Assembly (NCBI GenBank): GCA_045641645.1
Contig: JAZUHK010000030.1
Span: 1 to 60,872, forward strand
DNA: 60,872 nt
Source of the DNA: Kiritimatiellia bacterium
GTDB taxonomy: Bacteria > Verrucomicrobiota > Kiritimatiellia > RFP12 > UBA1067
Direction: 5' to 3'
Below the pieces are notes generated by a model. It was not told the DNA's origin. It worked only from the letters and a program-made list of their open reading frames with translations, and made no database searches. This document shows positions 3,968 through 60,872 of the stretch, piece by piece. Position 1 is the stretch's first letter; every line of letters starts with the position of its first letter. Both the position numbers and the translations under genes were made by a program.

Positions 3968-4444
3968 ATGAGAGGAGAGAAGGGCGTTTGCGTAATCGGC
4001 GATCTCGGGGAGCTTGGGCAGCTGGCCGCGCTCGGGCCGGGTTTTGCCGCAGCGGCGGCTTTTGCCGCGGAACATGAGCTTGCCGCGCTTAAGCCGGGAC
4101 GGCATGCGATTGACGGCGAGCGGGTCTTCGTCAATTGTGACGAGGTGGAGTTGGTCGAGCCGGCCTCGCGCAAGGTGGAGCTGCACCATCGGTATTTTGA
4201 CATTCATGTGCCACTCTTGGACGAGGAGCTTATCGGGGTTGGGAAGTTTGAGCTGGCCTCGCGCGGCACTTTTGACGCGGAGAGGGACATCGGCTTTTTC
4301 GAGCAGGCGGTAGAGTTTGAGCGGGTCGGGGTCGGCGAGTTCCTGCTTGCCTGGCCGGGGACGTGTGCGCATGCGCCGGCCTGCACGGATGGGGTGCGGC
4401 GGAAGACGCGCAAGCTCATCTTCAAGATTCTCGCTGAGGCATAG
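3968..4444 (+). CDS. YhcH/YjgK/YiaL (DUF386, EbgC-like) family protein
   Basis: 158 aa. The pattern HHRYFDIHVPL...GEFLLAWPGTCAHAP resembles the beta-sandwich YhcH family (HxxY.D.. and ..H.P motifs). Confidence 0.65.
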   Translation: MRGEKGVCVIGDLGELGQLAALGPGFAAAAAFAAEHELAALKPGRHAIDGERVFVNCDEVELVEPASRKVELHHRYFDIHVPLLDEELIGVGKFELASRGTFDAERDIGFFEQAVEFERVGVGEFLLAWPGTCAHAPACTDGVRRKTRKLIFKILAEA

Positions 4445-4486
4445 AGCCGACTTCACTCCGCTCGCTGCCGCTCCCTTCGCTTGTCG
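4400..4486 (+). repeat. 87-bp direct repeat, copy 1 (last 45 nt of the YhcH-like CDS plus 42 nt downstream)
   Basis: Matches 6615-6701 at 84 of 87 positions by hand alignment. Confidence 0.9.
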
Positions 4487-4519
4487 CATTTTCTTCCGCT
4501 TGGCGGCGTAGCGGTTTTT

Positions 4520-4528
4520 TGCTACACT
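4520..4528 (+). promoter_or_regulatory. -10-like box TGCTACACT, duplicate of the box at 6907-6915
   Basis: TTTTGCTACACTAT here versus TTTTGCTATACTAC at 6903-6916. It points into the low-GC insert. Confidence 0.35.
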
Positions 4529-4817
4529 ATTTTCCGTCCTGTGAAAGTCGGGGCGATGCCAATCGGCCTCTCGCCACCTCTAAGCGGGGCGAAGAACGCG
4601 TCACCACGCGGACTTGTTCGTTCAAGCGAAACGTCGAAATTTCACAAAGGAACGACATGTCCTGTGAGGGGTGCGCATGGCCGAACACTCGGCTGGGCGT
4701 GTCTCCTTGCATCCATGTTTTCCTTTAGGGCTTTCGACGGCCTCGCTTGAGAACACGGGTGAAGGAGGCACGCCCGCTTTATTGTTGCCTCTGTTTAAGT
4801 GACAATGGAAAAATCTT

Positions 4818-5291
4818 ATGTCTATAGTGTACACTGCGAGTAATGTGAAAAAGAGAGAATCGGCACTTAGCCAAGTATTATTTCGAGATCCAGGCATGGA
4901 TACGGAAAGAAGTTGGATTTTTCCGCGGGTGTTGAAGTTTTTATATTTTGCCACAATATTTTTAACTCTCATTTGTTCTGCAGCCTATTTGATTATTGGC
5001 ATTATTGGGATTTTACACGATGATTCTTTTGATTCAACGGAAAAATTTCTGATAGTTTGCGGCAGCATTGTTATTTTTCCTATTGCCGTGTTTTGCCTTC
5101 TCATAATTAACCGTATTGTATATGAATGGGCGATCCTTAAATTTAGGATATTTCAAGCATTGCGAGAGGCCGTGGACGGATTAGCTAGTGTTAATAAGTC
5201 GCTCGTTGGCATTTCAAAAGTACAACAAACCGCTGGGCAATATGTTTGCGATATGCTTGCAACGATTAACGATTCATTGGGAGGGTTATGA
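4818..5291 (+). CDS. small membrane protein, unknown function (low-GC insert gene 1)
   Basis: 157 aa. Two long hydrophobic segments (FLYFATIFLTLICSAAYLIIGIIGIL and FLIVCGSIVIFPIAVFCLLII) followed by RIVYEWAILKFRIF, a topology reminiscent of DUF4282. AT-rich codons. ATGA overlap with the next gene. Confidence 0.6.
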   Translation: MSIVYTASNVKKRESALSQVLFRDPGMDTERSWIFPRVLKFLYFATIFLTLICSAAYLIIGIIGILHDDSFDSTEKFLIVCGSIVIFPIAVFCLLIINRIVYEWAILKFRIFQALREAVDGLASVNKSLVGISKVQQTAGQYVCDMLATINDSLGGL

Positions 5292-6604
5292 ATAATTGGC
5301 CATTTTTCATTCTGGGGATTGCTTTTGGTCCTGCGGCGTTTCTATTTGCGTCGGCCAAACAAAAAGGAAGCATTTCTGCTACGATCAAAGGATGTTTTTG
5401 TTTTTTCTTGCTTGTGCTTGTTGGATGGAGGATTTCTGCGAATGTACAGAAAAGGAATGAGGAGCGAGCGCGAGAACGGCAATGTGCATATGAGCATCAA
5501 ATGAAAGTGCAATTGGCTGAAAAGGAACGTTTATTTACCGAGTTGCAGGAAAGAAAGAAAGCCGTTGAATGCTTAAGTAAAGAAATTGGGTTGCCGATAG
5601 ATAATTTTAAGCTTCGGCAGTGGGAATCAATAAGCGAATATGATTCTAAAGAAAAAATAGAGTCCATGCTTAGGGCGGCTAAAGAAGAACACTCGGAATT
5701 GCAAGCTGAACAAGCGAGAATTTTGGAAGAAAAGAAACTCAAAGAAGAATACGAGCAAAATCAAAAGGCATTGGCGCGTGAGATGGCGGCGCGACAAATG
5801 CGTGAAAATGAGAGGCAGGCGGAAGAAATGCGCGTGGCTGAACAAGAAAAATTGGAAGCGGAGAAATTTGCATTTCAAAAGGAGCAGGAGAAATTAAAGG
5901 CGATAGCAAAGAAAATGATCAACAAGCTTGATCTGTCCCCTTCATCTTGTTTGATGTATCATAAGTATCTGGCCAGCAGGATTAGGTCGGGGCGGTTTCC
6001 CCAATCGCTCAAGGAATTGCGAGAGGCAAAAAAACAAGGAGATTATCTCAAATTCCTAAATCTTGCCGCAAAAGATTCTGATTGCGAACATTATGTGCGT
6101 AATGGTGCGATGTATGAGTTCCCAGATCGGGAGGGGATCCAGACGATCTTGGCTTCTTTGCGAGATCGTTTGTTTGAGATAGAGCTTACCTTTCAAGAGG
6201 GGTTTGATGTATCACAAGTTTCTCTTGTGCAACTTCAGGCTGGCGGAGGAATACTAGGAGACGAGTTATTGGAAGATTGCAATTATTCTTGCAGTGGCGG
6301 GATAATGTATGTTCCAATGTCGGTTGGTCGCGGGAAGATGTATTTGATTGAAAAGGGGGCTGCGGCGTTTTTGAATCGAGAGCTTAAACGCATTAAGCAA
6401 AAGCAAGGAAATATGCAAAAAAAGCTGGAGGAGCTTTTGTCAAAAGATGTTTCGTATGACGAGGTACGCGCTTTGCGATTAAAAGCGGAGCAAGATCGTA
6501 TTGGAGAAGAAGCTCGTCGCATGAAGAATGCGAAGCGAGAACATCTCAGGATGAAAAACTATGATCCGCGGTGGGGTAGCGATGCGGGTCGGAGATGGCG
6601 GTGA
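5288..6604 (+). CDS. membrane-anchored coiled-coil protein, unknown function (low-GC insert gene 2)
   Basis: 438 aa. Two N-terminal hydrophobic segments. A roughly 150-aa E/K/Q/R-rich heptad-like region (about nt 5450-5900). C-terminal domain with no motif I recognise. Translationally coupled to gene 1. Confidence 0.6.
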   Translation: MNNWPFFILGIAFGPAAFLFASAKQKGSISATIKGCFCFFLLVLVGWRISANVQKRNEERARERQCAYEHQMKVQLAEKERLFTELQERKKAVECLSKEIGLPIDNFKLRQWESISEYDSKEKIESMLRAAKEEHSELQAEQARILEEKKLKEEYEQNQKALAREMAARQMRENERQAEEMRVAEQEKLEAEKFAFQKEQEKLKAIAKKMINKLDLSPSSCLMYHKYLASRIRSGRFPQSLKELREAKKQGDYLKFLNLAAKDSDCEHYVRNGAMYEFPDREGIQTILASLRDRLFEIELTFQEGFDVSQVSLVQLQAGGGILGDELLEDCNYSCSGGIMYVPMSVGRGKMYLIEKGAAAFLNRELKRIKQKQGNMQKKLEELLSKDVSYDEVRALRLKAEQDRIGEEARRMKNAKREHLRMKNYDPRWGSDAGRRWR

Positions 6605-6614
6605 TATTGAGGAT

Positions 6615-6701
6615 CGGAAGACGCGCAAGCTCATCTTCAAGATTCTCGCCGAGGCATAGAGCCGACTTCACTCCGCTCGCTATCGCTCCCTTCGCTTGTC
6701 G
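6615..6701 (+). repeat. 87-bp direct repeat, copy 2 (orphan copy of the YhcH-like 3' end)
   Basis: Still encodes RKTRKLIFKILAEA-stop in the appropriate frame but has no gene body upstream. 3 mismatches to copy 1. Confidence 0.9.
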
Positions 6702-6835
6702 GGGAGGCGCTCGGATAGCCGGCTTCGCTGCCGCTCCCTTCGCTCGTCGGGGAGGCGCTCGGATAGCCGACATCACTCCTCTCGCTATCGCTTCCTTCGC
6801 TCGCTGCCGCCCCCTTCGCTCGTCGTGGCGGCTTT
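6661..6835. repeat. REP-like tandem hairpin repeats (about 2.5 units of 48-60 bp)
   Basis: GCTCCCTTCGCT(T/C)GTCGGGGAGGCGCTCGGATAGCC occurs at 6685-6720 and 6733-6768, with a third degenerate unit following. Each unit can pair CGCTCCC with GGGAG(G)CG. A related inverted segment lies at 6861-6900. Confidence 0.75.
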
Positions 6836-6906
6836 CCGCTTTCTTTGTTTGTCTGGAGGGCAAGGAGCGGAAGGAGCGAAGCGAGTGGAGCTCCTTGCAT
6901 AAGTTT

Positions 6907-6921: not shown

Positions 6922-7836
6922 ATGGCATCGCACAATCCAGAGGTTGCGCTTCAGCAGCGAGACAAGGCCAGAGCACTCGAGCTTGGCTTAAGCGGTGATG
7001 CCTCCGCCGGGCCCGAACTCTGCAAGCTCGCCAAAAGCCGCTACCCGGAAGTTAGGCGGCTCGCCGCCTCCGCGCTCGGCAAGATCGCCAACGCACCGCC
7101 GACCGCCCTCGTTATCCCCACGCTCTTCTCCCTCGCCACCCAGGACGAGCGCCCGCAGATTCGCCAGTATGCCCTTAAATCGCTCGCCCGCTATCCGCGC
7201 GAGCTCCTCCTCATCATCGACGACCTCAAGGACCTCGCCCGCGATCCGACGCAAAAGGAATACGTTCGCACTGCCGCCGCCGAGGCCGTCGCTGCCGCGC
7301 AAAAGGCGAATCGCGAGCGCCTTGCCGCACAGAACCGCTGGTGCGCCCGTTGTCGGAGAGTCATCACCGAGGAGGAGTACTTCGCCGGCATGGAGCGCTA
7401 CGGCAGGGGCTACTGCCGCCATTGCCTCGACGAGAAGCTGCTGGAGGACCGGAACTTCGAGTCCGTCGTGGACCAGGCGAAGCGACTGCGCACGACCGAC
7501 GGCATCGCCGTCCAGTCCCATGGCGAAAAACGCATCGCCGCGTACCTGACCGCGAAAGATATCGCCTTTACCTACGACGAGCGCTATCGCATCGCGGGCG
7601 ACGCGCGCCTCCGGCCCGATTTCTATCTTCCGGAGTTTGACCTCTACATCGAATACTGGGGCATGAACACGCCCGACTACGAGCGCAACAAGCTCCGTAA
7701 GCGCATCCTCTACCAGCGCGCCGGCAAACGGCTCATCTCCCTCTCCTTTGCGGACGCAGACCGGCTGGAGCAAACACTCGAAGCGAAGCTTTCCAAGTAC
7801 ATTCGTCTGGGACCGGATACGGAAGGGGGTAGATAA
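6922..7836 (+). CDS. HEAT-repeat / zinc-ribbon / PD-(D/E)xK-like nuclease-fold protein
   Basis: N-terminal HEAT-like repeats (PEVRRLAASALGKI, RPQIRQYALKSLARYP). CxxC...CxxC (CARCRR...CRHC). The C-terminal block SHGEKRIAAYL...RPDFYLPEFDLYIEYWGM resembles the restriction-endonuclease-like module found at the N-termini of some SF1 helicases. The ORF-track start at 6595 runs through the repeats and is rejected. Confidence 0.5.
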   Translation: MASHNPEVALQQRDKARALELGLSGDASAGPELCKLAKSRYPEVRRLAASALGKIANAPPTALVIPTLFSLATQDERPQIRQYALKSLARYPRELLLIIDDLKDLARDPTQKEYVRTAAAEAVAAAQKANRERLAAQNRWCARCRRVITEEEYFAGMERYGRGYCRHCLDEKLLEDRNFESVVDQAKRLRTTDGIAVQSHGEKRIAAYLTAKDIAFTYDERYRIAGDARLRPDFYLPEFDLYIEYWGMNTPDYERNKLRKRILYQRAGKRLISLSFADADRLEQTLEAKLSKYIRLGPDTEGGR

Positions 7837-8774
7837 TGAGCAGGCGGCTGTTGGTGGGTTTCAAGGCGGGAGACCTGAGGGCGGAGATGCTTTCTGGCGA
7901 GGTCACCTGCCATACGCTCGACATCTATCACGCTCATGCAATCGAGAAGGTCTTTCCCAGGGCGCGCGTCGTCTGTACGCCCCATCTGCCCGCCGGCCCC
8001 TGGGATGAGATCGTCTTCCGCACGGGGCCGAAGGTGATGAGCGGGGAGCTTTCGCTTGACCTTCTCCAGGAGATCCATCTCCTGAAGCCCGCCGCGTTCC
8101 GGCTTGACTTCGTGGGCAAGGAGCGCGACCGCAATGACCTTCTCGACAAGGTGCGCAAAGACCCGGACCGCGTGCGCGACTTCTCGGCCGTCTGGCCAGC
8201 GAGCGTCCCCGGGGGCGAGAAACTTTTCTTTACGAGCTACCCCGGCTGCTTCTGTCATCGCCGTCTCGATGAGGGCGGTCTTGCCCTTGCAGAAGTGGTG
8301 ACGCGAGAAATGACGAATGAAGAATTTAGAATGAAGAATGGTGGAGGAGTTAGTCTCCTCGATATGGGGTGCGGTTGCGGGCTCGTCGGGCTTCTCATCG
8401 CGAAGCGCATTTCCGGGGTTCGTCTCACGCTGATCGACTCGCATACGCGGGCGGTGGAAGCGGCGCGCAAGAATGCCGCGGCTTTCGGCGTTGAGGCGAC
8501 GGTGATTCTCTCCGACGACGGCCTTCCGACTTCGCTCGCTGGTGAGGAGATGCCGCGCTTCGATGTCTTCGTGGGCAATCCTCCTTACTACAGCGACTAT
8601 CGCATCGCCGAGGTGTTCCTAACGACGGCGCAGCGCGCGCTTAAGTCGGGCGGTACCTGCTACACGGTGGTTAAGAATGAGACGGGGCTCAAGCCAGTGC
8701 AAGAGCGCTTCTTTCCGTCGGTGGAGGTGATCCGCCGTCGCGGCTATGCGGTACTCAAGTCGGTCAGGCAATAG
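7836..8774 (+). CDS. class I SAM-dependent methyltransferase, RsmC/RlmG-like
   Basis: PGCFCHRRLDEGG...LLDMGCGCGLVG (motif I) and VFVGNPPYY (motif IV, NPPY). TAATG overlap with the upstream gene. Confidence 0.75.
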   Translation: MSRRLLVGFKAGDLRAEMLSGEVTCHTLDIYHAHAIEKVFPRARVVCTPHLPAGPWDEIVFRTGPKVMSGELSLDLLQEIHLLKPAAFRLDFVGKERDRNDLLDKVRKDPDRVRDFSAVWPASVPGGEKLFFTSYPGCFCHRRLDEGGLALAEVVTREMTNEEFRMKNGGGVSLLDMGCGCGLVGLLIAKRISGVRLTLIDSHTRAVEAARKNAAAFGVEATVILSDDGLPTSLAGEEMPRFDVFVGNPPYYSDYRIAEVFLTTAQRALKSGGTCYTVVKNETGLKPVQERFFPSVEVIRRRGYAVLKSVRQ

Positions 8775-8891
8775 GCCTCTCCCTCCGCTTTCGCTCTTTC
8801 TGCCTCTTCGGATTTGCCCTGTCTGCTTATCCACAACCTATCCCCATTTTAGGGGATTTAACCCCCTATCTATGGCGGTTGAAAATATCTC

Positions 8892-8921
8892 TTGCATAGT
8901 AATTGAAAATTGTGGTATCAT
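8892..8921 (+). promoter_or_regulatory. sigma70-like promoter (TTGCAT, 18 nt spacer, TGgTATCAT)
   Basis: -35 at 8892-8897 and extended -10 at 8913-8921. GGAGAAGG SD precedes ATG 8949. Confidence 0.45.
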
Positions 8922-8948
8922 ATGCACCGTTATCTTTGGAGAAGGTTT

Positions 8949-11900
8949 ATGGCTATGCAGAAAAAAATGAAAGCAGTTACTTTCTTTGCAGTCGCGTTCG
9001 CGCTGTGCGGTGCGGCGTTGGCAAATCCCGTGGTCGTCAACTGGGTGACAGGTAATGTCGGAAACTACACCGATTTTCCGGTCGAAGATTGGACCGAGTC
9101 GCAAGCAGGCGTTGCCGAATTAGCGGGCGACGAGGACGCAAAGTACGTCACCTTCGAGTCGGATTATGACGATCCGCTCTTCTACAGGCCCTCGGGTTCG
9201 GCTTCGAAACTCGTGAGTGTCGAGTGGGCGATCCAGCTTATCGGCGGAGATATGGCGCCGACGATGGCTATCGATGGTATGGGTCCGGCGATTACGGCCA
9301 CTACCCCCGAAGATGAAAGCGACGATACTCCTGCTCAGTGGTATGGCTATGCGTTGACCAACGAGGTGGAAGCCGGCTGGGTCAAGCTTTTTGGCAACGT
9401 GCCCTCGAACGAGGTCTGGTACACGGTCAAGATCGAACAGGGGATGTTTGCCGGGGTTCGCAAGATTCGCTATTCCGTCAAGCCGGAGGGTGCGGAATCC
9501 TTTACGATCCTCAAGGATACTAACGAGAATGAGTGGTTCGTCGATCCGCGCACCAGTGGTGCTGGTCTCGCTTCGGCGAATTTCGTGGGTGCCGGTGCTT
9601 TCGGTGATTTCAAGATCGACAACACCTGGTTTGATCAGGGCGCGCTCGCGGGTACGGCTACGGCGGGCTTCGACTGGACGAACGCCACGGTCACGGTCTC
9701 CGTGGGCGATTCGTATGTGGCGGATGAATCGCCAATCATCCTTGAACTCAAGGTCTATGATGCCGCGGGTACGCAGGTGGGCACCTATGAAGCGGGTTTG
9801 ACAACGGATAGCGGCAAGGGTAAGGGCGTCTTCGATGTCGGCAATCTCACTCCGGGCGGTAACTACTCCTATGAAGTGGTGGCGAAAGTCGGGGACGAGG
9901 AGGTGGCTTCCTTTGCCCGTGACGGCAACCTAGTTTCCGCCAACAATGTGGAGTGGATTTGCGAGAATTCCACGAAAAAACTCGGCGGTGCGTTTGCCCC
10001 GATCCCCGTTTGGAACGGCGGCGTGGCCCAGCTCTCCAATGCGGTCTTTGCGGTTAATGACATTAACCAGGAAGAGGCCTCGAACCGGCTTATTCGCATT
10101 GAGAATACGCTGATGGGCTCGGAGTTGTGCGACGACCTCGGCATCTTGGAGGATTACGACCTTTCGGTCATTCAGGGCGCGATGCTGGCGTATGTTAATC
10201 CGGAGACGGAAGAGGCAAGCTGGCTGGGCGTGGTGGATGGCGAGTGGGTGACGCTTACGGGCGCGGCTCCGGCGGCGAACCAGAAGTATGTTGTCCGCGT
10301 CGATTTCGACTTCACGCTGGCGGAACCGAAGGTGCGCTACTCTGTTTCCGCAGATGACGGGGCTTCGTTCGCGACCCTTAGGTATGAGAATGCCGAGTGG
10401 CTGGCGATTGCGCCCGAGGTGGCGGCGGCGAAGACGGTCACGGCCATTGAGCTTCCGGGCAGCTGCTCCTTCTATGGCATGAAGGGCGATTATTATGACG
10501 CGGCCGTTGCCGAGGTGGGTGGTACAAAGTATTACACGCTCGATGCGGCGCTTGCCGCGGCGAAGGTTTCTGACCAGCAGGTGAAGCTCCTCACGAACCT
10601 CACCTATCTCCCGGGCGGCTTGGACGGCACGTGGACGATTGACGAGAATGGCAAGGCGTTGCAGATCCTTACGCCGGAAGACGGCTATACCTACACCTAT
10701 GCTGAAGGTGCGCTCACGGTTGAGGCCCAGGATATGTGCGTCAAGAACCTGACGAGGGGCTATCAGCACCTTAATCTCAAGGCGGCGCAGGCGCGCGCGG
10801 AGGAGGGCGACATCCTGCAGCTCCTCAAGAATGTCGGGGCGGCGGCACTGGCAATTGAGAAGTCGCTTACGTTGGACCTTAACAACTTTAGCGTCACCAA
10901 TGACGCGGTGGATACGCAGCTCTTAGTCCTCACCAATAATGTCACCTTTACGCTTGCCGGCGAGGGTGCGCTTACGGACGGAATTGACGTTTGGGCGGGC
11001 AGCAAGCTCGCGCTCTCCAATAACTTTGCCGCGGCGGCTGAGTCGGTTGCGCTGGAGCTTAAGGGCGAGTGGGCGCATGAGGCGGTGATTGCCGAGGGGG
11101 TCTCGGCAGCGCAGGCCGCGATGCTGGCGATTACGCCCGAGAAGATCGACTTCCCGACGGCTGGCAATGGTCAGGTGGAGTATCGTGAGGAAGATGGCAT
11201 GTTCGTCTGGGCGGAGATTCCGCCGTCGGCGAAGCTCGCGTTCGAGCGCACTGATGGCTATGACCTCACCAATTTGATAGTCACGGTGACGCTGAGCGAA
11301 GTGGCGGGCGATCTCAGTAAGGTGGTGATCGACCTCTATAACGAGAATGGCACGCTCGCGAAGCGCACGGCGGTTGATTATGTGGACAACACCTTGGTTT
11401 ATCCGATTGTCCTCGATGGTTATACGAAGGGCACGCGCTATACCTTCAACGCCTATGTCCTTGGCGGCGACTCCGAGGATGTTGTCGGCGGTGGCGCGGT
11501 GGCGGGTTCGTTCTATGCGGGCGCGAACGGCCAGATCTGGTTCCGTGCGAAGCCAGATGACATCCTCTACGGCGCATGGGAGGAGGAGCCGGAAGTAGGT
11601 GAGGATGGTCGCTATGTCCTCGACGGTGACGAATATGTCTTCACGCCCACGGAACAGTCGCCCTCGAATGCGTTTGTCACGGTGGATTGGCAGGTTTCCT
11701 TCGACCGCGCAGCGGATGAGGATCTTGCGCTTGATGTCGGCGGCGAAGGCGCGTTCTCGCTCTTCGCCGGGGCGGAGCCGGAGACCTGTGTCTGGAAGGG
11801 CTTGGGCAATGGCGCGTGGGTCACGCTTACGAACGCGGTTGCCGCGCAGCCGGGTGATTACCTTGTCCACGCCGATTTCGACTACACGCTGGCGGAACCG

Positions 11901-12728
11901 AAGGTGAGCTATGCGCTCATCGTGGACGGCAGGTTGTATCGCTTTGCGGATCCGGAGGGCAATGTGTGGTTCACGGTTGCTGACTCGGCGGGTCAGATTG
12001 CATCGGTGAGCGCGGTTGGCGAGGGCAAGTTGGATGTGGTCGAGGGCTTCTGGAGCATCGATGCGGTGGCGGCGATCGGCGATGAGTTCTTCGCGACGAT
12101 TGACGCGGCCGCGGCGGCGGGCAAGGACGATGAGAATAAGGTCATCAAGCTGCTCACCAATGTCACTTGGGCGCCGACGGAAAGCGGCACCTACTACTTC
12201 AACTTAAACGACTTTAGTGTTCAGGCGACGGATAATGTCACTTGGAACGCGAATGTCGCAACCGTGAGCGGCGGTGAGATGGAGATTGAGGAGATGGATG
12301 TGAAGATTAAAGTTGACACCTCGTTTATCAAGGAGCAGCTGCCGGGGCTGCCTGAGGGAGCAACGACTGAGCAGGTGGCGGAGGCCTTGAAGGCGCCGGG
12401 TGCAAACGGCTACAAGCTCTACGAGAGCTATGTCCTCGGCCTTGATCCGAAGGATGAGTTCTCGAAGCCGGTGCTGGTTGATGAGCTTTCGGCCAAGGCG
12501 GACAAGGTGGATGTCCAGGTGCTGAATGTGAGCGTCAATGCGAAGGCGGGTGTGGAGGTGAAATACTCTCTCGTTGCTGATACGGATCCCGAATTTAAGA
12601 TGGGCGTGGAATCCGAGAAGCAGGAGTCGGGTGTCTTCGAAGTTCCGCTCCCGAGCAATGACGAAACGGTGAAGTACTACAAGGTCAATTTCTACTTCTC
12701 GAACCCGGCTCCTGCTCCGGCGGATTGA
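8949..12728 (+). CDS. large secreted repeat protein (1,259 aa), unknown function
   Basis: Signal peptide MAMQKKMKAVTFFAVAFALCGAALA. A threefold internal module, for example GEWVTLTGAAPAANQKYVVRVDFDFTLAEPKVRYSV and GAWVTLTNAVAAQPGDYLVHADFDYTLAEPKVSYAL. Cap-like motifs KYYTLDAALAAAK..VKLLTNLTY and EFFATIDAAAAAGK..IKLLTNVTW. Confidence 0.75.
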   Translation: MAMQKKMKAVTFFAVAFALCGAALANPVVVNWVTGNVGNYTDFPVEDWTESQAGVAELAGDEDAKYVTFESDYDDPLFYRPSGSASKLVSVEWAIQLIGGDMAPTMAIDGMGPAITATTPEDESDDTPAQWYGYALTNEVEAGWVKLFGNVPSNEVWYTVKIEQGMFAGVRKIRYSVKPEGAESFTILKDTNENEWFVDPRTSGAGLASANFVGAGAFGDFKIDNTWFDQGALAGTATAGFDWTNATVTVSVGDSYVADESPIILELKVYDAAGTQVGTYEAGLTTDSGKGKGVFDVGNLTPGGNYSYEVVAKVGDEEVASFARDGNLVSANNVEWICENSTKKLGGAFAPIPVWNGGVAQLSNAVFAVNDINQEEASNRLIRIENTLMGSELCDDLGILEDYDLSVIQGAMLAYVNPETEEASWLGVVDGEWVTLTGAAPAANQKYVVRVDFDFTLAEPKVRYSVSADDGASFATLRYENAEWLAIAPEVAAAKTVTAIELPGSCSFYGMKGDYYDAAVAEVGGTKYYTLDAALAAAKVSDQQVKLLTNLTYLPGGLDGTWTIDENGKALQILTPEDGYTYTYAEGALTVEAQDMCVKNLTRGYQHLNLKAAQARAEEGDILQLLKNVGAAALAIEKSLTLDLNNFSVTNDAVDTQLLVLTNNVTFTLAGEGALTDGIDVWAGSKLALSNNFAAAAESVALELKGEWAHEAVIAEGVSAAQAAMLAITPEKIDFPTAGNGQVEYREEDGMFVWAEIPPSAKLAFERTDGYDLTNLIVTVTLSEVAGDLSKVVIDLYNENGTLAKRTAVDYVDNTLVYPIVLDGYTKGTRYTFNAYVLGGDSEDVVGGGAVAGSFYAGANGQIWFRAKPDDILYGAWEEEPEVGEDGRYVLDGDEYVFTPTEQSPSNAFVTVDWQVSFDRAADEDLALDVGGEGAFSLFAGAEPETCVWKGLGNGAWVTLTNAVAAQPGDYLVHADFDYTLAEPKVSYALIVDGRLYRFADPEGNVWFTVADSAGQIASVSAVGEGKLDVVEGFWSIDAVAAIGDEFFATIDAAAAAGKDDENKVIKLLTNVTWAPTESGTYYFNLNDFSVQATDNVTWNANVATVSGGEMEIEEMDVKIKVDTSFIKEQLPGLPEGATTEQVAEALKAPGANGYKLYESYVLGLDPKDEFSKPVLVDELSAKADKVDVQVLNVSVNAKAGVEVKYSLVADTDPEFKMGVESEKQESGVFEVPLPSNDETVKYYKVNFYFSNPAPAPAD

Positions 12729-13515: not shown

Positions 13516-13620
13516 CAATCTCAAATCTCAAATTTCAAATCTCTAAAATCTCACCGTTCTCCACCTCCACCTACTTTCCACACCTTCTTCTCCACCTCCA
13601 CCTATTTTCTCCACCTTCTC
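13516..13620 (-). repeat. polypurine composite repeat, reverse orientation (two cores plus a heptamer tail)
   Basis: The reverse complement reads GAAGGTGGAGAAAATAGGTGGAGGTGGA and GAAGGTGTGGAAAGTAGGTGGAGGTGGA, followed by GAGATTT-type repeats. This is the same architecture as 47048-47117. Confidence 0.85.
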
Positions 13621-13637
13621 TATTACCCCTAACCCCT

Positions 13638-22868: not shown

Positions 22869-22898
22869 AGAAGCACAATTGTGAAAGGATTGGTTAAA

Positions 22899-25800
22899 AT
22901 GAAAAGAAATTCACTGGTTCTTTGCGGCGTGATGACCTTGGCTTTTGCCGGTAGTCGAGTTCTTGCCTATGAAGACGATTACCTGACGACGACCGATAGT
23001 GGCGTGACGGTGATTGATACCGAGGAGGGGAATCGCGTCTATGTGTTTACGACTGCAGGAACGGAATTGACGGCAACCCTTAAAAGGGATATGAAGCTCG
23101 ACCAGGTTCTGCTGGTTGGCGGTGGCGGTGGTGGCGGCGGATTTAAGGGCGGTGGCGGTGGTGCCGGTCAGGTGATTCATTTGCAGAATCTTAACCTGCT
23201 TCATTCTGTCGGCGTGAGCTATCGCTTTACAGTTGGCTCCGGAGGAACGGCAGGGACGAGCGCGTTTAATGTTTCTGCGGGCGATGGTGGCGATGGTTTG
23301 GCTACGAGTTTCGCCATAACGGGTGCCGATATCGGCGGGAGCGCGAGTTATAGCGCAGCTGGCGGCGGTGGCGGCGGACGCTGGGGAGTCGCGGGGCATA
23401 ATGGCGCATGCGGTGGTGGCGCGGGTGGAACGTCTGATGCTAAGCCGAGTGGTGGCGTGGGTTCGGTCGGCGGCGATGGCGGCAACAATGTCGGTGTCGC
23501 TCGTAATGCCGGTAGCGGTCCGGGCGGCGGCGGCATGGGACGCGATCTTCAGGGCGCAGACGGTGAATCAACCGATACCGGGTTGGGTGGCGCAGGGTAC
23601 CTCTGTTCGATCACCGGGGTGGAGAAGGAGTATGGCCGCGGCGGCGATGGCGGCGGCTTGGCTTCGGCGGCGGCGGGGGCGCTCGGGTCTGGCAATGGTG
23701 GCGGCGGCGGTGCGATGAGCGCGGCTGCCTATTCGGGTGGTTCGGGCACGGTCATTCTGGCTTTTTCACTCAATGCGAAGCCGAAAATCAAGGCCACGCT
23801 TGATGCTGTGGAGCTTCGTCCGAATGGGGAGGCGACAATTCGTTATTCGCTCACTGATGTCGGCTCGGGATCCTGTTCGGTAGCGGTGGCTGTTGCTGTT
23901 GACGAAGGGGACTTCGGGGACACGAATGTCATTGGCAACGTCACGGAACCGGGGACCTTCACGAGCGCGCCGATGGCAATAAGCGGGTTTGCAACTAAGA
24001 CAACCTATCGTTTTAAGCTGATCGTCACCAACGAGAGCGACGATCCATTGGTGACCGAGCCGGTTTCCGCCATTTCGATTCCCGAGCCGGCGGCGACTTT
24101 TGCTGTTCGTGAGGTTGCGGCCGCCATGGACAGTGAGACCTTTTCGGCCCAGGGCGCGATTGCCGTTACGGGGTGTGGAGATTTTTGCGATGCGGTTGAC
24201 GTTTATCTTGTGCTGGCGAAGGAGGGGAACGAAAGGCCGGCGTGGGACGCACCGGTAATGACGGTGGGCTTGGGTGAGGCGGAATACGCTTTCACTGGGC
24301 TTGAGGAGCTTACAACCTATCGCTATTGGTTTAAGGTCGTCAATGCCAATGCGTATGCGACGGAGGTTGCGACGGGAACGTTCAAGACGCCGAAGTATGT
24401 GGAACCTGCGGTGTTGCCCGAGCCGGTCGCGGGTATGACGGTCGAGGAGGCGATGGCCGCCTTGCGGCCGCAGTCCCACCGCGGACCCAAGGTGCTCATC
24501 ATTGGCGACAGTTATTCCACCTTTTATGGATGTATCCCAGAGGATTACGCCGCCTATTACGCGATGACCGCCGGGCAGGTTAAGAACGGCGTCGAGAATC
24601 CGTCCTATACCTGGTGGTACAAGTTCATCAAGGCGGTTGACGGCTATTTGGTGCGCAATGATTCCTATAGTGGATCAACCATCGCCTGGTGGGGGATTTA
24701 TGCCCAAGCCCATAATTTCACCGGCTGGACCTATTGGCAGGCAGACCGTGACGAGTCGTTCTGTGAGCGGGTTAAGAATCTGGGCGAAACCGAAGCGGAT
24801 CGGCCCGATCTTATCTTGGTTTTCGGCGGCACCAACGATAACTGGATGCGGCAGCGCGTGAAAGAAGGCGATGCGTCGCAGATGGGGCCCTACACTTTCG
24901 ATCCGCGTGCTCGCGACGGCCTCGTAAATGAAAACGACTGCGTTCACCTCGCGCCGGCGATTCATCAGCTGATGTGGGTGCTTCGTAACAAGTATCCTTT
25001 GGCCAAGACGATGTTCATCATCAATTCGAGATCCACGGTAAATTATGGTGGAGGGGCTCCGACGGGGAAGGAACAAGACGGTATGACCGATGAATATATC
25101 GAGGCCATTGACGTAGCCGCGCGTGGTCTCGGGTGCGCGACGGTCAAGCTCAAAGACATCGGTAAGGAAAACCAACATCCCAATGTCGAAGGCATGGTGG
25201 CGATTGCCCAGCAGGTGGCGGATAACTATAATGCGTGGAAGAGCATGGATTGGGAGGTGATCTCGCCGTCGGCAGGGATAGGGGCCGATGAAGATGGCAG
25301 CCGTTCGGAGACGGGCGACGAGATCGCTGGTACGGCGAATGAGGACTTCGGTTTCTGGCGGCTCGTCAATCACCGCGATGCCGGTGGCGTTACGCGGCAC
25401 TACCGGGTGATCGCTGTCACCAACGACACGCAGGAACAGCAGGTGGATGTGCCGGCAGATACCGCGGTTGAATATCTTTTGGTAGGCGGTGGTGGCGGCG
25501 CCGGTACGGTGTTTAACGCGAAGTATGGCGGTTGCGGTGGTGCTGGCGCGTTGAACGAGGGCTTCCGGCGGTGGGAAGCGGCGACGACACTGACGGTGCG
25601 ACTGGGTGTGGGCGGGAGTCATGATGCGAGTAACAATGGTCTTCCCGGCTTGCCTACGGTGGTGTATGCGCCGGCGATCACGTGTTTACCATTTGAGGGT
25701 GATGGCGGTAGCCAAGTGACGGAGCGCGAATGTCGGCTCTTGATGGCGGCTGGCGGTGGTGGTGGCGCTAATTGCAATAGTTCGACTATGGGCGTGGTGA

Positions 25801-31764: not shown

Positions 31765-31830
31765 TTTTGCTCGTCCCTCGCAAAACTAACCGGCGGTTGC
31801 GGAGGGTTGACCATGAGTGAGCTTTTTCGC

Positions 31831-31836
31831 TATAAT
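31831..31836 (+). promoter_or_regulatory. -10 box TATAAT for the 3,587-aa gene
   Basis: TCGCTATAATACCC resembles the other boxes. It ends 7 nt before ATG 31844. Confidence 0.4.
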
Positions 31837-31843
31837 ACCCAAC

Positions 31844-44326: not shown

Positions 44327-44425
44327 GAAGGTTGAGGGAGGGGGAAGGTGGAGAAAGTAGGTGGAGGTGGAGAGGGGAAGAATTGTTCGATTGATCGATT
44401 GAGGGGGAGAAGGTTGAGGTTGTGG
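44326..44425 (+). repeat. polypurine composite repeat, full copy
   Basis: GAGAAGGTTGAGGG flank, exact 28-mer core GAAGGTGGAGAAAGTAGGTGGAGGTGGA at 44344-44371, then GAAGAATTGTTCGATTGATCGATT, then a second GAGAAGGTTGAGG. Confidence 0.9.
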
Positions 44426-60840: not shown

Positions 60841-60872
60841 GTGGAGGGGGAGAGAGAAGGTGGAGAAAGTAG
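60820..60872 (+). repeat. polypurine composite repeat (runs off the right edge)
   Basis: GAGAGAGTAGGTGGAGGGGGA, followed by GAAGGTGGAGAAAGTAG at 60856-60872. The smc stop codon TAG lies within the GTAGGTGGAGG core. Confidence 0.8.

What the first reader, a model, noticed from the sequence alone, without database searches (positions are those of the whole stretch)
4818..6604. Orphan two-gene operon: small 2-TM protein translationally coupled to a TM-anchored coiled-coil protein
The only cargo of the low-GC insert is a 157-aa protein and a 438-aa protein. The 157-aa protein has two long hydrophobic helices and an amphipathic tail. The 438-aa protein has two N-terminal hydrophobic helices, about 150 aa of E/K/Q/R-rich coiled coil, and a roughly 200-aa C-terminal domain with no motif I recognise. 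The genes overlap by ATGA.

Small horizontally acquired membrane-protein pairs with no enzymatic signature are typical of phage-exclusion or abortive-infection modules, toxin-immunity pairs, or phage lysis/superinfection-exclusion cassettes. None of those families is identifiable here. This is my best candidate for an undescribed accessory system, but the functional guess is pure inference.
Basis: inference. Interest (0 to 1): 0.65.

Follow-up and report, generated by a model that had tools for sequence, protein, structure and literature searches.

The report
Strain-variable membrane two-gene cassette
A gut Kiritimatiellia bacterium carries a 2.1-kb cassette, absent from sister strains, that encodes a small two-helix membrane protein and a membrane-anchored stalked protein of a very rare new family, both placed behind a previously undescribed structured leader RNA that elsewhere precedes defence-type and envelope genes; what the pair does is still unknown.

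Summary
Genes A (4818-5291, 157 aa) and B (5288-6604, 438 aa) overlap by ATGA in a low-GC stretch (about 0.40 against 0.60).

New evidence:
- **Indel.** The stretch is a true indel. Contigs from sister strains in three other samples join 4486 directly to about 6660/6800. An 87-nt direct repeat brackets the cassette.
- **Gene A.** A belongs to Pfam DUF4282. It carries a family-specific tail, QYxCDxLAxIxD.
- **Gene B.** B has no hit in Pfam, NCBIfam, PADLOC, PHROGs, PDB, phages or plasmids. Only about 15 relatives exist among 1.84 billion representative proteins.
- **Linkage.** In 8 of 9 informative operons an A-type gene sits directly upstream of B.
- **Fold and location.** A confident AlphaFold model of B's C-terminal domain matches no known fold. 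Related modules sit behind lipoprotein signals and single-pass anchors, so B's stalk and domain are probably periplasmic.
- **Leader.** The cassette starts with a promoter and a roughly 280-nt structured leader RNA. The leader shows strong covariation, is not in Rfam, and elsewhere precedes DrmD-like and HKD-SNF2 helicases, proteases and lipoproteins.

Function is inferred only. My best guess is an accessory envelope-level conflict or exclusion module, at about 0.35.

The parts
3968..4444 (+). Upstream core gene, YhcH/YjgK/YiaL (DUF386) family. Its last 45 nt form part of the left direct repeat.
   Evidence: Pfam PF04074, E 5e-26. It is present in the empty-site contigs.
4400..4486 (.). Left copy of the 87-nt direct repeat that brackets the cassette.
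   Evidence: the repeat finder family D3: 97% identical to 6615-6701. There is no other copy in the window.
4487..6614 (+). Strain-variable cassette of 2128 nt: promoter, leader RNA, gene A and gene B.
   Evidence: Contigs of sister strains join 4486 to 6801 (X1, 1596-nt contig, depth 21), 4486 to 6660 (X4) and 4486 to 6800 (X6, 6071-nt contig). The coding part is low in GC.
4500..4528 (+). Putative promoter: TTGGCG, 17-nt spacer, extended -10 TGcTACACT.
   Evidence: The -10 block TTTTGnTATAAT is conserved at the 5' end of all 13 full-length leader copies. The simple promoter scan did not list it (8 of 12 matches).
4518..4797 (+). Conserved structured leader RNA (the 5' UTR of A-B, about 4535-4817). 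It is a multi-copy element of gut Kiritimatiellia.
   Evidence: Contig depth reaches 12,500 against 21 for the flanks. nhmmer E 9e-71. The consensus has 63 pairs, 16 of them with compensatory changes; 97.8% of cells are paired and 0 of 500 shuffles reach this. MFE z-score is -6.2. No Rfam match.
4818..5291 (+). Gene A: 157-aa DUF4282 two-TM protein. TM1 is about 4929-5015 and TM2 about 5043-5117. The conserved C-terminal amphipathic tail with QYVCDMLATIND lies at about 5118-5288. An alternative start is the GTG at 4845.
   Evidence: Pfam PF14110, 28.6 bits. Hydropathy. Partner-family alignment A6 has invariant P25, P36, Y43, Q141, Y142, C144, L147 and A148.
5279..5291 (+). Translational coupling signal: SD GGGAGGG (5279-5285) and the ATGA start/stop overlap (5288-5291).
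   Evidence: Read directly from the sequence.
5288..5428 (+). Gene B membrane anchor (aa 1-47). It comprises a hydrophobic segment with a conserved G-x3-G-P (possibly re-entrant), a basic loop KQKGS, and a transmembrane helix.
   Evidence: Hydropathy. Family alignment A4. AF2 gives low confidence for aa 1-28 and a helix running on from aa 29.
5429..5923 (+). Gene B charged alpha-helical stalk (aa 48-212), rich in E/K/R/Q.
   Evidence: AF2 helices 29-100 and 121-212, pLDDT 78-95.
5924..6442 (+). Gene B C-terminal alpha/beta domain (aa 213-385). It has a helical subdomain and a beta-rich subdomain. Conserved residues are H225, Y352, E355, G357 and A358.
   Evidence: AF2 with a 13-sequence alignment: pLDDT 87.3, pTM 0.72. 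No fold match: best Foldseek PDB E 0.07 with TM 0.15, best BFVD E 0.12. No PDB sequence match.
6443..6604 (+). Gene B conserved SYDE(V) motif, basic terminal helix and C-terminal end (family consensus (R/K)x(K/R)x(K/T)GP; MKNYDPRW here), followed by the stop codon.
   Evidence: Alignments A4 and A5. The same tail motif is seen in the lipoprotein relative P0018; P0019 shares only the basic tail.
6615..6701 (.). Right copy of the 87-nt direct repeat. It carries a second copy of the yhcH 3' end.
   Evidence: At position 4435/6650 the right copy agrees with the empty-site allele.
6677..6848 (.). Array of 48-nt tandem-type repeats in the yhcH-HEAT intergenic region. Copy number varies between strains.
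   Evidence: the repeat finder family D1. 'Goes back 42/46/57' joints and variable fillers at the empty site.
6922..7836 (+). Downstream gene: HEAT-repeat, CxxC, PD-(D/E)xK nuclease-like protein. It is a PADLOC candidate defence protein and is present with or without the cassette.
   Evidence: PADLOC PDLC01150, E 2e-76; Pfam HEAT repeats. It is covered by the empty-site contigs.

Best explanation
Shown:
- Positions 4487-6614 are a self-contained accessory cassette in the chromosome of a horse/gut Kiritimatiellia bacterium.
- It is bracketed by an 87-nt direct repeat and is missing from sister strains.
- It has its own promoter and a roughly 280-nt structured leader RNA, followed by two translationally coupled genes.
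- A is a DUF4282-family inner-membrane protein with two TM helices and a family-specific amphipathic C-terminal tail (QYxCDxLAxIxD).
- B founds a very small family. Its order of parts is membrane anchor, about 165 aa of charged helical stalk, an alpha/beta domain of about 175 aa with an unrecognised fold, and a basic C-terminal helix.
- A-type and B-type genes are almost always adjacent.

Inferred:
- A's termini are cytoplasmic. Zn-ribbon-extended A paralogues indicate this.
- B's stalk and domain project into the periplasm. The same module occurs behind lipoprotein signal peptides and behind N-in single-pass anchors. B therefore has a TolA-like or i-spanin-like architecture.
- A and B form a stoichiometric inner-membrane complex through their membrane segments.
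- B acts as the periplasm-facing sensor or tether. A acts as the membrane-embedded partner, possibly a channel-type effector.
- Expression is gated by the leader RNA, probably at translation. A decoy GGAGG pairs with UCUCC just upstream of the real ribosome-binding site.
- The most likely role is an accessory envelope-level conflict function, such as exclusion of phage or another envelope-targeting attack. The reasons are that the cassette is strain-variable, that it sits next to a candidate defence nuclease, and that its leader also drives DISARM-like and HKD-SNF2 helicase genes.

Only the anatomy, linkage, variability and leader structure are demonstrated. Topology, complex formation and function are inference.
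For: - **Anatomy:**
- **Empty site in three other samples, with the cassette at low depth in five:**
- **Pair linkage:** an A-type gene lies directly upstream of B in the window, L001, L002, L086, L087, L088, L084/85 and L092, with invariant tail residues.
- **Rarity of B:** 18 hits among 1.84e9 representatives, about 15 of them convincing relatives and two Ig-repeat matches. Nothing in phages, plasmids, IMG/VR, GTDB representatives or JGI metagenomes.
- **Leader:** 14 copies, 16 covarying pairs, controls clean.
- **Leader cargo:** includes DrmD-like SNF2 (E 1e-100), HKD+Snf2 (E 1e-118), Trypsin_2 protease, dynamin-like GTPase, radical-SAM/SPASM enzyme and lipoproteins.
- **Neighbours:** HEAT_CxxC_PD-DEXK, and in L084 a PIN toxin pair.
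Against: - No experiment or homology ties A or B to any function. PADLOC gives only noise (E 0.04 and 0.64).
- The family appears confined to a narrow group of gut bacteria. Leader-bearing relatives are gut Kiritimatiellia. Successful defence systems usually spread more widely.
- The window neighbourhood is mostly housekeeping: FolB, Nth, CinA-type and a methyltransferase.
- Much of the leader's cargo is ordinary-looking envelope lipoproteins, so a shared leader is weak guilt by association.
- Topology is unresolved. B's N-tail is positively charged in most members, and two full TM helices would place the stalk in the cytoplasm.
- Window B lacks the conserved N-terminal IPxRF tail and part of the stalk, so it may be a degenerate member.
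- There is no RNA evidence for A-B expression.
- Eleven of 12 differences from the 98.9%-identical copy L003 are non-synonymous. This fits relaxed constraint as well as diversifying selection.
Confidence: 0.35

Rival explanations
1. A-B is a non-conflict envelope module: an accessory inner-membrane-anchored tether or scaffold. On this view B's stalk spans the periplasm and its C-terminal domain and basic tail bind an envelope component such as peptidoglycan, outer membrane or a lipoprotein. A stabilises or anchors B. The pair contributes to envelope integrity or surface architecture under conditions sensed by the leader.
For: - B has a TolA-like order of parts.
- Related modules occur in Sel1-repeat lipoproteins.
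- Most leader cargo consists of lipoproteins, PA14-like secreted proteins and TolB-like proteins.
- There is no enzymatic or nucleic-acid-targeting signature.
Against: - The cassette is missing from closely related strains (about 96% identity), which evidently do without it.
- It has a foreign GC content.
- There is no similarity to TolA_C, TonB_C, OmpA or LysM domains.
Confidence: 0.28
2. Cytoplasmic-face scaffold. Both hydrophobic segments of B span the membrane, so the stalk and domain are cytoplasmic. A's conserved cytoplasmic tail docks on B. The pair then works like small-anchor plus coiled-coil membrane-stress systems such as LiaI-LiaH/PspA or NfeD-SPFH.
For: - B has two hydrophobic segments, and most members have positively charged N-tails.
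- A's most conserved element is a cytoplasmic tail, which needs a cytoplasmic partner.
- ER/K-rich helices are commoner in the cytoplasm.
Against: - The homologous stalk and domain module sits behind lipoprotein signals and N-in single-pass anchors.
- The first hydrophobic segment has a central Gly-Pro and is modelled with low confidence.
- There are no PspA/IM30, Band_7 or NfeD Pfam hits.
Confidence: 0.15
3. Lysis or release cassette. A acts as a class-II-type holin (two TM helices, N-in/C-in, charged tail). B acts as an i-spanin-like periplasm-spanning coiled-coil protein. The cassette would be domesticated for regulated lysis or vesicle release.
For: The architecture is analogous: a small two-TM protein followed by a TM-anchored periplasmic helical protein, with overlapping genes.
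Against: - There is no endolysin or o-spanin.
- There is no PHROG holin or spanin hit.
- No phage or IMG/VR relatives exist.
- At 438 aa with a globular domain, B is far larger than known i-spanins.
- Some variants add Zn-ribbon domains and large periplasmic loops to A.
Confidence: 0.07
4. Toxin-immunity or toxin-antitoxin pair, or a decaying remnant of a larger element with no current function.
For: - The two-gene layout has overlapping ORFs.
- A PIN toxin-antitoxin pair lies next to the L084 cassette.
- Window B is trimmed relative to its relatives.
- Eleven of 12 substitutions against L003 are non-synonymous.
- The right cassette end abuts the B stop codon.
Against: - Both ORFs are intact, and motifs are conserved over 22-40% identity across about 10 lineages.
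- Neither protein resembles any toxin, antitoxin or immunity family.
Confidence: 0.1

Closest known systems
Pfam DUF4282 (PF14110), small integral membrane proteins of unknown function
   Same: A matches above the gathering cut-off. Five of seven partner proteins match. All share a two-TM core.
   Different: The family has no known function, and no paper in the searched library mentions it. The QYxCDxLAxIxD tail, the DPxM...FP N-motif and the obligatory pairing with B are specific to this subgroup.
TolA (and TonB): inner-membrane anchor, long charged helical domain II, globular C-terminal domain reaching across the periplasm
   Same: B has the same order of parts: membrane anchor, long E/K/R/A-rich helix, C-terminal alpha/beta domain. 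The location is probably periplasmic.
   Different: There is no TolA_C or TonB_C sequence or fold similarity. The partner is a two-TM DUF4282 protein, not TolQ/R or ExbB/D. B has an extra hydrophobic segment and a basic C-terminal helix. The cassette is accessory, not core.
Phage holin plus i-spanin (for example lambda S and Rz)
   Same: A small two-TM protein with a charged cytoplasmic tail sits next to a TM-anchored, helix-rich periplasmic protein, and the genes overlap.
   Different: There is no endolysin or o-spanin, no PHROG match and no phage context. B is two to three times larger and has a globular domain.
Small-anchor plus coiled-coil membrane-stress pairs (LiaI-LiaH/PspA; NfeD-SPFH)
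   Same: A two-gene operon encodes a small membrane protein and a helical or coiled-coil protein that acts at the membrane.
   Different: There are no PspA_IM30, Band_7 or NfeD hits. B carries its own anchor, and its soluble part is probably periplasmic.
Membrane-anchored two-gene anti-phage systems (for example Kiwa KwaA/KwaB, Zorya ZorA/B) and SLATT two-TM effectors
   Same: An accessory, strain-variable pair with a membrane component. It lies next to a candidate defence gene. There is a marginal PADLOC RTasSLATT hit for A (E 0.04).
   Different: No significant PADLOC hit exists for either protein. No phenotype is known.
Mobile promoters, and riboswitch-type 5' leaders shared by unrelated genes
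   Same: The leader is a highly similar sequence (75-86% nt) of about 280 nt with its own -10 box. It sits directly upstream of non-homologous genes in many genomes and shows conserved secondary structure.
   Different: It matches none of 4227 Rfam families. The ligand or binding factor is unknown. Its cargo is accessory, defence and envelope genes rather than one metabolic pathway.

Membership tests
Pfam DUF4282 (gene A) | Score at or above the Pfam gathering threshold for PF14110. | tested here: met
   28.6 bits against a cut-off of 27, E 2e-6, aa 31-117. Five of seven partner proteins match at E <= 0.1, best 2.9e-7.
Pfam DUF4282 (gene A) | Small integral membrane protein with a pair of TM helices. 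| tested here: met
   Two hydrophobic segments in every partner protein.
Known anti-phage defence systems (PADLOC-DB v2) | Significant match of at least one component to a defence-system model. | tested here: not met
   A: RTasSLATT, E 0.04. B: JetC, E 0.64. Both are noise level.
Defence-island or mobile-element cargo | Presence/absence polymorphism between close strains. | tested here: met
   Empty-site contigs in X1, X4 and X6.
Defence-island or mobile-element cargo | Neighbourhood enriched in defence genes, or carriage on a phage or plasmid. | tested here: inconclusive
   There is one candidate defence neighbour (HEAT_CxxC_PD-DEXK) and one PIN toxin-antitoxin neighbour (L084). The other neighbours are housekeeping. 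There are no phage, plasmid or IMG/VR homologues. Most homologous contigs are too short (2-4 kb) to judge.
TolA / TonB energy-transducing tethers | TolA_C or TonB_C C-terminal domain (by sequence or fold). | tested here: not met
   No Pfam hit. The best Foldseek PDB hits are Ig V domains at E 0.07, TM 0.15.
TolA / TonB energy-transducing tethers | Partner proton-channel proteins (TolQ/R or ExbB/D) in the operon. | tested here: not met
   The only partner is a two-TM DUF4282 protein.
Holin / spanin lysis cassette | Adjacent endolysin and o-spanin lipoprotein; phage context; match to holin or spanin families. | tested here: not met
   The cassette holds only A and B. There are no PHROG hits and no phage relatives.
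PspA/IM30, SPFH (Band_7) and NfeD membrane-stress proteins | Match to PF04012, PF01145 or PF01957. | tested here: not met
   No Pfam family matches B at E <= 1, and A matches only DUF4282.
Toxin-antitoxin or toxin-immunity pair | Recognisable toxin or antitoxin domain; toxicity of one partner neutralised by the other. | not testable with these tools
   No domain hit was found. Toxicity needs an expression experiment.
Rfam RNA families (leader 4518-4797) | cmscan match to any of 4227 covariance models. | tested here: not met
   The only hits are chance miRNA matches at E 0.96 and 0.14.
Structured cis-regulatory RNA (generic) | Conserved secondary structure supported by compensatory changes, on the sense strand upstream of genes. 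| tested here: met
   16 of 63 pairs show changes on both sides. 97.8% of cells are paired, against 36-53% for slid controls. 0 of 500 shuffles reach this. Many G-U pairs fix the strand. The gene start lies within about 30 nt of the 3' end in about 10 of the 12 full-length copies with downstream sequence first examined.

The most novel reading that the evidence does not exclude
Gut Kiritimatiellia use a previously unknown structured leader RNA, carrying its own promoter, as a common 5' module for exchangeable accessory-gene cassettes. Those cassettes include DISARM-like and HKD-SNF2 helicases, proteases and dynamin-like GTPases. On this reading A-B is one such cassette and encodes a new envelope-level anti-phage or exclusion system. 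B would be a periplasm-spanning stalked sensor with a novel fold, coupled to a DUF4282 membrane effector.
Probability: 0.2. Interest if true: 0.85.

Novelty: categorically new. Interest (0 to 1): 0.6.

Why it matters
If the pair is a working system, three things follow.
- It would give a first functional handle on DUF4282, a family found in bacteria, archaea and eukaryotes that has no literature.
- It would define a new protein family with an unrecognised fold.
- It would add an envelope-level accessory module from a poorly studied gut phylum.

The leader found with it may matter more. It is a roughly 280-nt RNA with strong covariation that is absent from Rfam. It is present in many copies per community and sits in front of defence-type and envelope genes. 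That makes it a candidate for a new riboswitch-like or protein-bound regulator of accessory genes, or for a 'mobile promoter/leader' that lets newly acquired genes plug into an existing regulon.

The 'categorically new' label rests on the absence of any relative. It does not rest on a demonstrated new mechanism.

Tried and rejected
- **Family libraries for B.** Pfam, NCBIfam, PADLOC and PHROGs gave nothing.
- **PDB sequence search** with a 13-sequence profile gave nothing.
- **Homologue searches.** tblastn of B against phages and plasmids found no match. The search for related loci with the B-domain alignment found none in IMG/VR, GTDB genomes or JGI metagenomes. The wider alignment A4 was rejected as too divergent.
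- **Tool quirk.** The search for homologous proteins with alignment A3 returned nothing, not even the query's own proteins. I treated this as a tool quirk.
- **Empty site through GTDB genomes** failed because no close YhcH relative exists. It was then found in raw metagenome contigs instead.
- **The 87-nt repeat as a DGR TR/VR pair:** rejected. There is no reverse transcriptase, and the three differences are not adenine-specific.
- **The repeat as a transposon target duplication:** rejected as too long. No terminal inverted repeats or shared end motifs appear between the window and L084 cassettes.
- **The leader as protein-coding:** rejected. A short ORF starts at the invariant ATGTCCTG, but indels among copies shift the frame while base pairs are kept.
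- **Known structured RNAs.** The leader is not a tRNA or tmRNA and matches no Rfam family.
- **My first assumption that B's stalk is cytoplasmic** was downgraded after I found the lipoprotein and single-pass relatives.
- **Literature.** No paper mentions DUF4282 or the HEAT_CxxC_PD-DEXK model, and nothing relevant links Kiritimatiellae to defence.
- **RNA-seq evidence for A-B:** no run could be listed.
Full report
**1. Observation**

The two ORFs exist as described. A runs 4818..5291 (157 aa) and B runs 5288..6604 (438 aa), both on the + strand. They overlap by ATGA at 5288-5291. A GGGAGGG Shine-Dalgarno sequence lies at 5279-5285 inside the end of A, so translational coupling is plausible.

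GC falls to 0.37-0.46 between 4800 and 6600, against 0.58-0.67 on both sides. Hydropathy confirms two hydrophobic segments in each protein.

**2. The host and the insert**

MutL, FtsA and SMC genes in the window show that this is a bacterial chromosome. MutL is 62% identical to that of a gut 'Kiritimatiellae bacterium' MAG, and the next-best hit is a Kiritimatiellales MAG at 45%. Public runs that hold the locus are horse, gut and faecal metagenomes.

An 87-nt direct repeat brackets the region (4400-4486 and 6615-6701, 97% identical). Its first 45 nt are the 3' end of the upstream YhcH/DUF386 gene. Neither half of the repeat occurs elsewhere in the window.

Laying metagenome contigs on the locus gave direct proof of an indel.
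- In run X1 a 1596-nt contig (depth 21, about 96% identical) joins 4486 to 6801.
- In run X6 a 6071-nt contig joins 4486 to 6800.
- In the RNA run X4 a contig joins 4486 to 6660.
- In each case only one unit of the local 48-nt repeat lies between the two sides.

Cassette-bearing contigs appear at low depth in X1, X2, X3, X8 and X11.

The cassette is therefore 4487-6614 (2128 nt) and is strain-variable. Whether the empty strains never had it, or lost it through recombination between the repeats, cannot be told. The foreign GC content argues that it was acquired at some point.

The downstream gene (6922-7836) matches the PADLOC candidate-defence model HEAT_CxxC_PD-DEXK at E 2e-76. It is present with or without the cassette. 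The remaining neighbours are housekeeping genes.

**3. Gene A**

A scores 28.6 bits against Pfam DUF4282, where the gathering cut-off is 27. No paper in the searched library mentions that family.

Only one close homologue (97%) exists among 5.8 billion clustered proteins. More distant partners were recovered through B's neighbours. An alignment of seven partner proteins shows these invariant residues: P25, P36, Y43, and Q141, Y142, C144, L147 and A148. Together they define an N-terminal DPxM...FP motif and a C-terminal tail, QYxCDxLAxIxD.

Two partners (274 and 288 aa, in L084 and L092) add an N-terminal Zn ribbon and a loop of about 100 aa between the TM helices. A Zn ribbon is cytoplasmic, so with two TM helices the conserved tail must be cytoplasmic as well. 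This last step is inference.

**4. Gene B**

B has no match in Pfam, NCBIfam, PADLOC or PHROGs. A word-indexed search found only two homologues, at 34-35% identity.

An exhaustive HMM search with the C-terminal domain against 1.84 billion representatives found 18 proteins. About 15 look like true relatives, and two are Ig-repeat noise. Seven relatives are 471-484 aa and share B's architecture. Two (773 and 829 aa) carry an N-terminal Zn ribbon and a single TM helix. Two are fragments.

The conserved features of the family are as follows:
- an N-terminal IPxRF tail, which is missing in the window's B;
- a hydrophobic segment with G-x3-G-P;
- a short basic loop;
- a TM helix with GWxxGW;
- a charged helical stalk;
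- a domain with H225, the motif YxIExGA (Y352, E355, G357, A358) and SYDE (Y390, D391);
- a basic helix;
- an end resembling (R/K)x(K/R)x(K/T)GP.

AlphaFold2 on the full protein with 3 sequences gave pLDDT 75. On aa 200-438 with 13 sequences it gave pLDDT 87.3 and pTM 0.72. Foldseek found nothing better than Ig V domains at E 0.07 and TM 0.15 in the PDB, and E 0.12 in BFVD. A profile search of PDB sequences was empty.

**5. Linkage**

Nine operons have upstream sequence available. In eight of them a DUF4282-type partner lies directly upstream of the B homologue: the window, L001, L002, L086, L087, L088, L084/85 and L092. In L089 a Zn-ribbon-TM protein takes that position instead.

Other linked genes are:
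- a Zn-ribbon plus TM2 protein (L084);
- Zn-ribbon-TM-domain proteins (L086, L089);
- a Zn-ribbon-PrsW protease (L091).

B has no relatives in phages, plasmids, IMG/VR, GTDB representative genomes or JGI metagenomes.

**6. Topology**

I first assumed that B's stalk is cytoplasmic. Three observations argue the other way.
- P0018 and P0019 begin with classic lipoprotein signals (lipoboxes LFGC and LSGC), followed by Sel1 repeats and an ER/K-rich helix. Both then carry a module that matches B's helical subdomain, at E 1.9e-12 and 1.2e-10 scaled to the whole library. P0018 ends in the same basic ...LRLRGP tail.
- P0006 and P0011 have a cytoplasmic Zn ribbon and a single TM helix, with positive charge on the N-terminal side. 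That places their B-type stalk and domain outside the cytoplasm.
- B's first hydrophobic segment has a central Gly-Pro and is modelled with low confidence, whereas the second runs straight on into the stalk helix.

The most economical reading has four parts: a cytoplasmic N-end, a re-entrant segment, a basic cytoplasmic loop, and one TM helix leading to a periplasmic stalk and domain. That is a TolA-like or i-spanin-like architecture. This is inference, and the cytoplasmic alternative is kept as a rival.

**7. The leader**

The first roughly 330 nt of the cassette are non-coding and have extraordinary contig depth in the metagenomes. Depth reaches 12,500 against 21 for the flanks, and the sequence is held as many 55-85-nt unitigs.

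The same element precedes the B operon in L084/85, and a weak match precedes the one in L088. L084's cassette is also bracketed by a direct repeat, here 54 nt.

Exact-match scans of GTDB genomes with two conserved cores returned 35 hits (16 and 19, with several loci in both lists). Most were gut Kiritimatiellia MAGs from sheep, rumen and human. Four hits in other taxa matched only the short core. At least two MAGs carried copies on more than one contig.

An alignment of 14 copies starts with an extended -10 box, TTTTGnTATAAT (TGcTACACT at 4520-4528 in the window). It ends about 20-30 nt before the downstream start codon.

Evidence for structure:
- RNAalifold predicts 63 pairs in 9 helices, and 16 pairs show compensatory changes.
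- For that structure 97.8% of cells pair. No shuffle out of 500 reaches any measure. Sliding the partners by 1-3 columns drops pairing to 36-53% and leaves only 3-7 covarying pairs.
- Many G-U pairs fix the strand as +.
- The window copy folds with a z-score of -6.2.
- No Rfam family matches.

A 3' helix pairs a GGAGG with UCUCC just before the real ribosome-binding site. This suggests a translational switch, but that is inference.

Cargo found behind other copies:
- a DrmD-like SNF2 helicase (PADLOC E 1e-100);
- an HKD+Snf2 protein (E 1e-118);
- a radical-SAM/SPASM/PqqD enzyme;
- a TM-coiled-coil protein with a Trypsin_2 protease;
- a protease with a dynamin-like GTPase;
- a Zn-ribbon-TM-ER/K protein;
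- several lipoproteins and PA14-like proteins.

The leader thus marks a mixed set of accessory, defence-type and envelope genes.

**8. Interpretation**

The demonstrated facts are these:
- a strain-variable cassette;
- a conserved A-B pair;
- a new B family with an unmatched fold;
- A's membership of DUF4282;
- a new structured leader.

The function is inferred. I favour an accessory envelope-level conflict or exclusion module, at about 0.35. In this reading B is the periplasm-facing sensor or tether, and A is its membrane partner and possible effector.

Four things support this: the variability, the defence-type neighbour, the defence-type co-cargo of the leader, and the lack of any housekeeping signature.

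The rivals are:
- a non-conflict envelope tether (0.28);
- a cytoplasmic-face scaffold of the LiaI/LiaH or NfeD/SPFH kind (0.15);
- a holin/spanin-like release cassette (0.07);
- a toxin pair or decaying remnant (0.10).

Against the 98.9%-identical copy L003, 11 of 12 differences are non-synonymous. That fits either diversifying selection or relaxed constraint, and the sample is too small to decide.

**9. Verdict**

Novelty is high in the sense that nothing known resembles B or the leader. Confidence in any mechanism is low.

Noticed in passing
window 4518-4797; also L084:4462-4711 and L093-L118: A structured leader RNA of about 280 nt with its own extended -10 promoter. It is multi-copy in gut Kiritimatiellia, absent from Rfam 15, and shows strong covariation. 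It lies directly upstream of unrelated accessory genes, including DrmD-like SNF2, HKD-SNF2, radical-SAM/SPASM, proteases, a dynamin-like GTPase and lipoproteins.
   Followed up: partly
window 6677-6848: A 48-nt repeat array in the yhcH-HEAT intergenic region, with the unit TCGCTGCCGCTCCCTTCGCTCGTCGGGGAGGCGCTCGGATAGCCGGCT. Copy number differs between strains: 'goes back 42/46/57' joints appear, and the fillers at the empty site vary. The cassette was inserted, or lost, exactly at the first unit.
   Followed up: partly
window 6922-7836: A HEAT-repeat, CxxC, PD-(D/E)xK protein that matches the PADLOC candidate-defence model PDLC01150 (E 2e-76). A TGcTATACT box ends 6 nt before its ATG, which suggests a leaderless transcript. 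The longer ORF from 6595 only reads through the repeat array.
   Followed up: partly
window 13545-13635 (-), 44329-44385, 46901-46957, 47033-47089, 60819-60856: An interspersed repeat of 30-60 nt, GGTGGAGAAAGTAGGTGGAGGTGGA. Two copies lie inside the mutL ORF (46273-48144, - strand), where they would encode a Pro/Thr/Ser-rich linker.
   Followed up: no
L084:4373-4426 and 7920-7973; L084:7640-7860: The related three-gene cassette (Zn-ribbon-TM2, A-like, B) is also bracketed by a direct repeat, here 54 nt and 93% identical. Its 3' non-coding end carries five or six copies of an ATGAGACC motif. A PIN toxin-antitoxin pair lies immediately upstream.
   Followed up: partly
P0018, P0019, P0017 (L109 for P0018): Sel1-repeat lipoproteins of 672-1112 aa carry the helical subdomain of B's C-terminal region. 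P0018 and P0019 also have an ER/K helix and a basic C-terminal tail. The module is therefore used with at least three different anchors.
   Followed up: partly
L107:384-809; L105:3733-6204; L108:4459-5670: Other leader-driven genes encode membrane proteins with a B-like GLLFGPFAL hydrophobic motif, or Zn-ribbon/TM anchors followed by long ER/K-rich helices. This hints at a wider superfamily of stalked envelope proteins in this clade.
   Followed up: no
window 22881-28064, 31817-42607, 8910-12728: Very large ORFs of 1727, 3596 and 1272 aa. The 1272-aa protein has internal repeats, and a GC dip lies upstream of it at about 8600-9200. I did not examine any of them.
   Followed up: no
window 4818-5892 versus L003: The only near-identical copy (98.9% nt, from another sample) differs at 12 positions. 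Eleven of them change the amino acid: 6 of 6 in A and 5 of 6 in B.
   Followed up: partly
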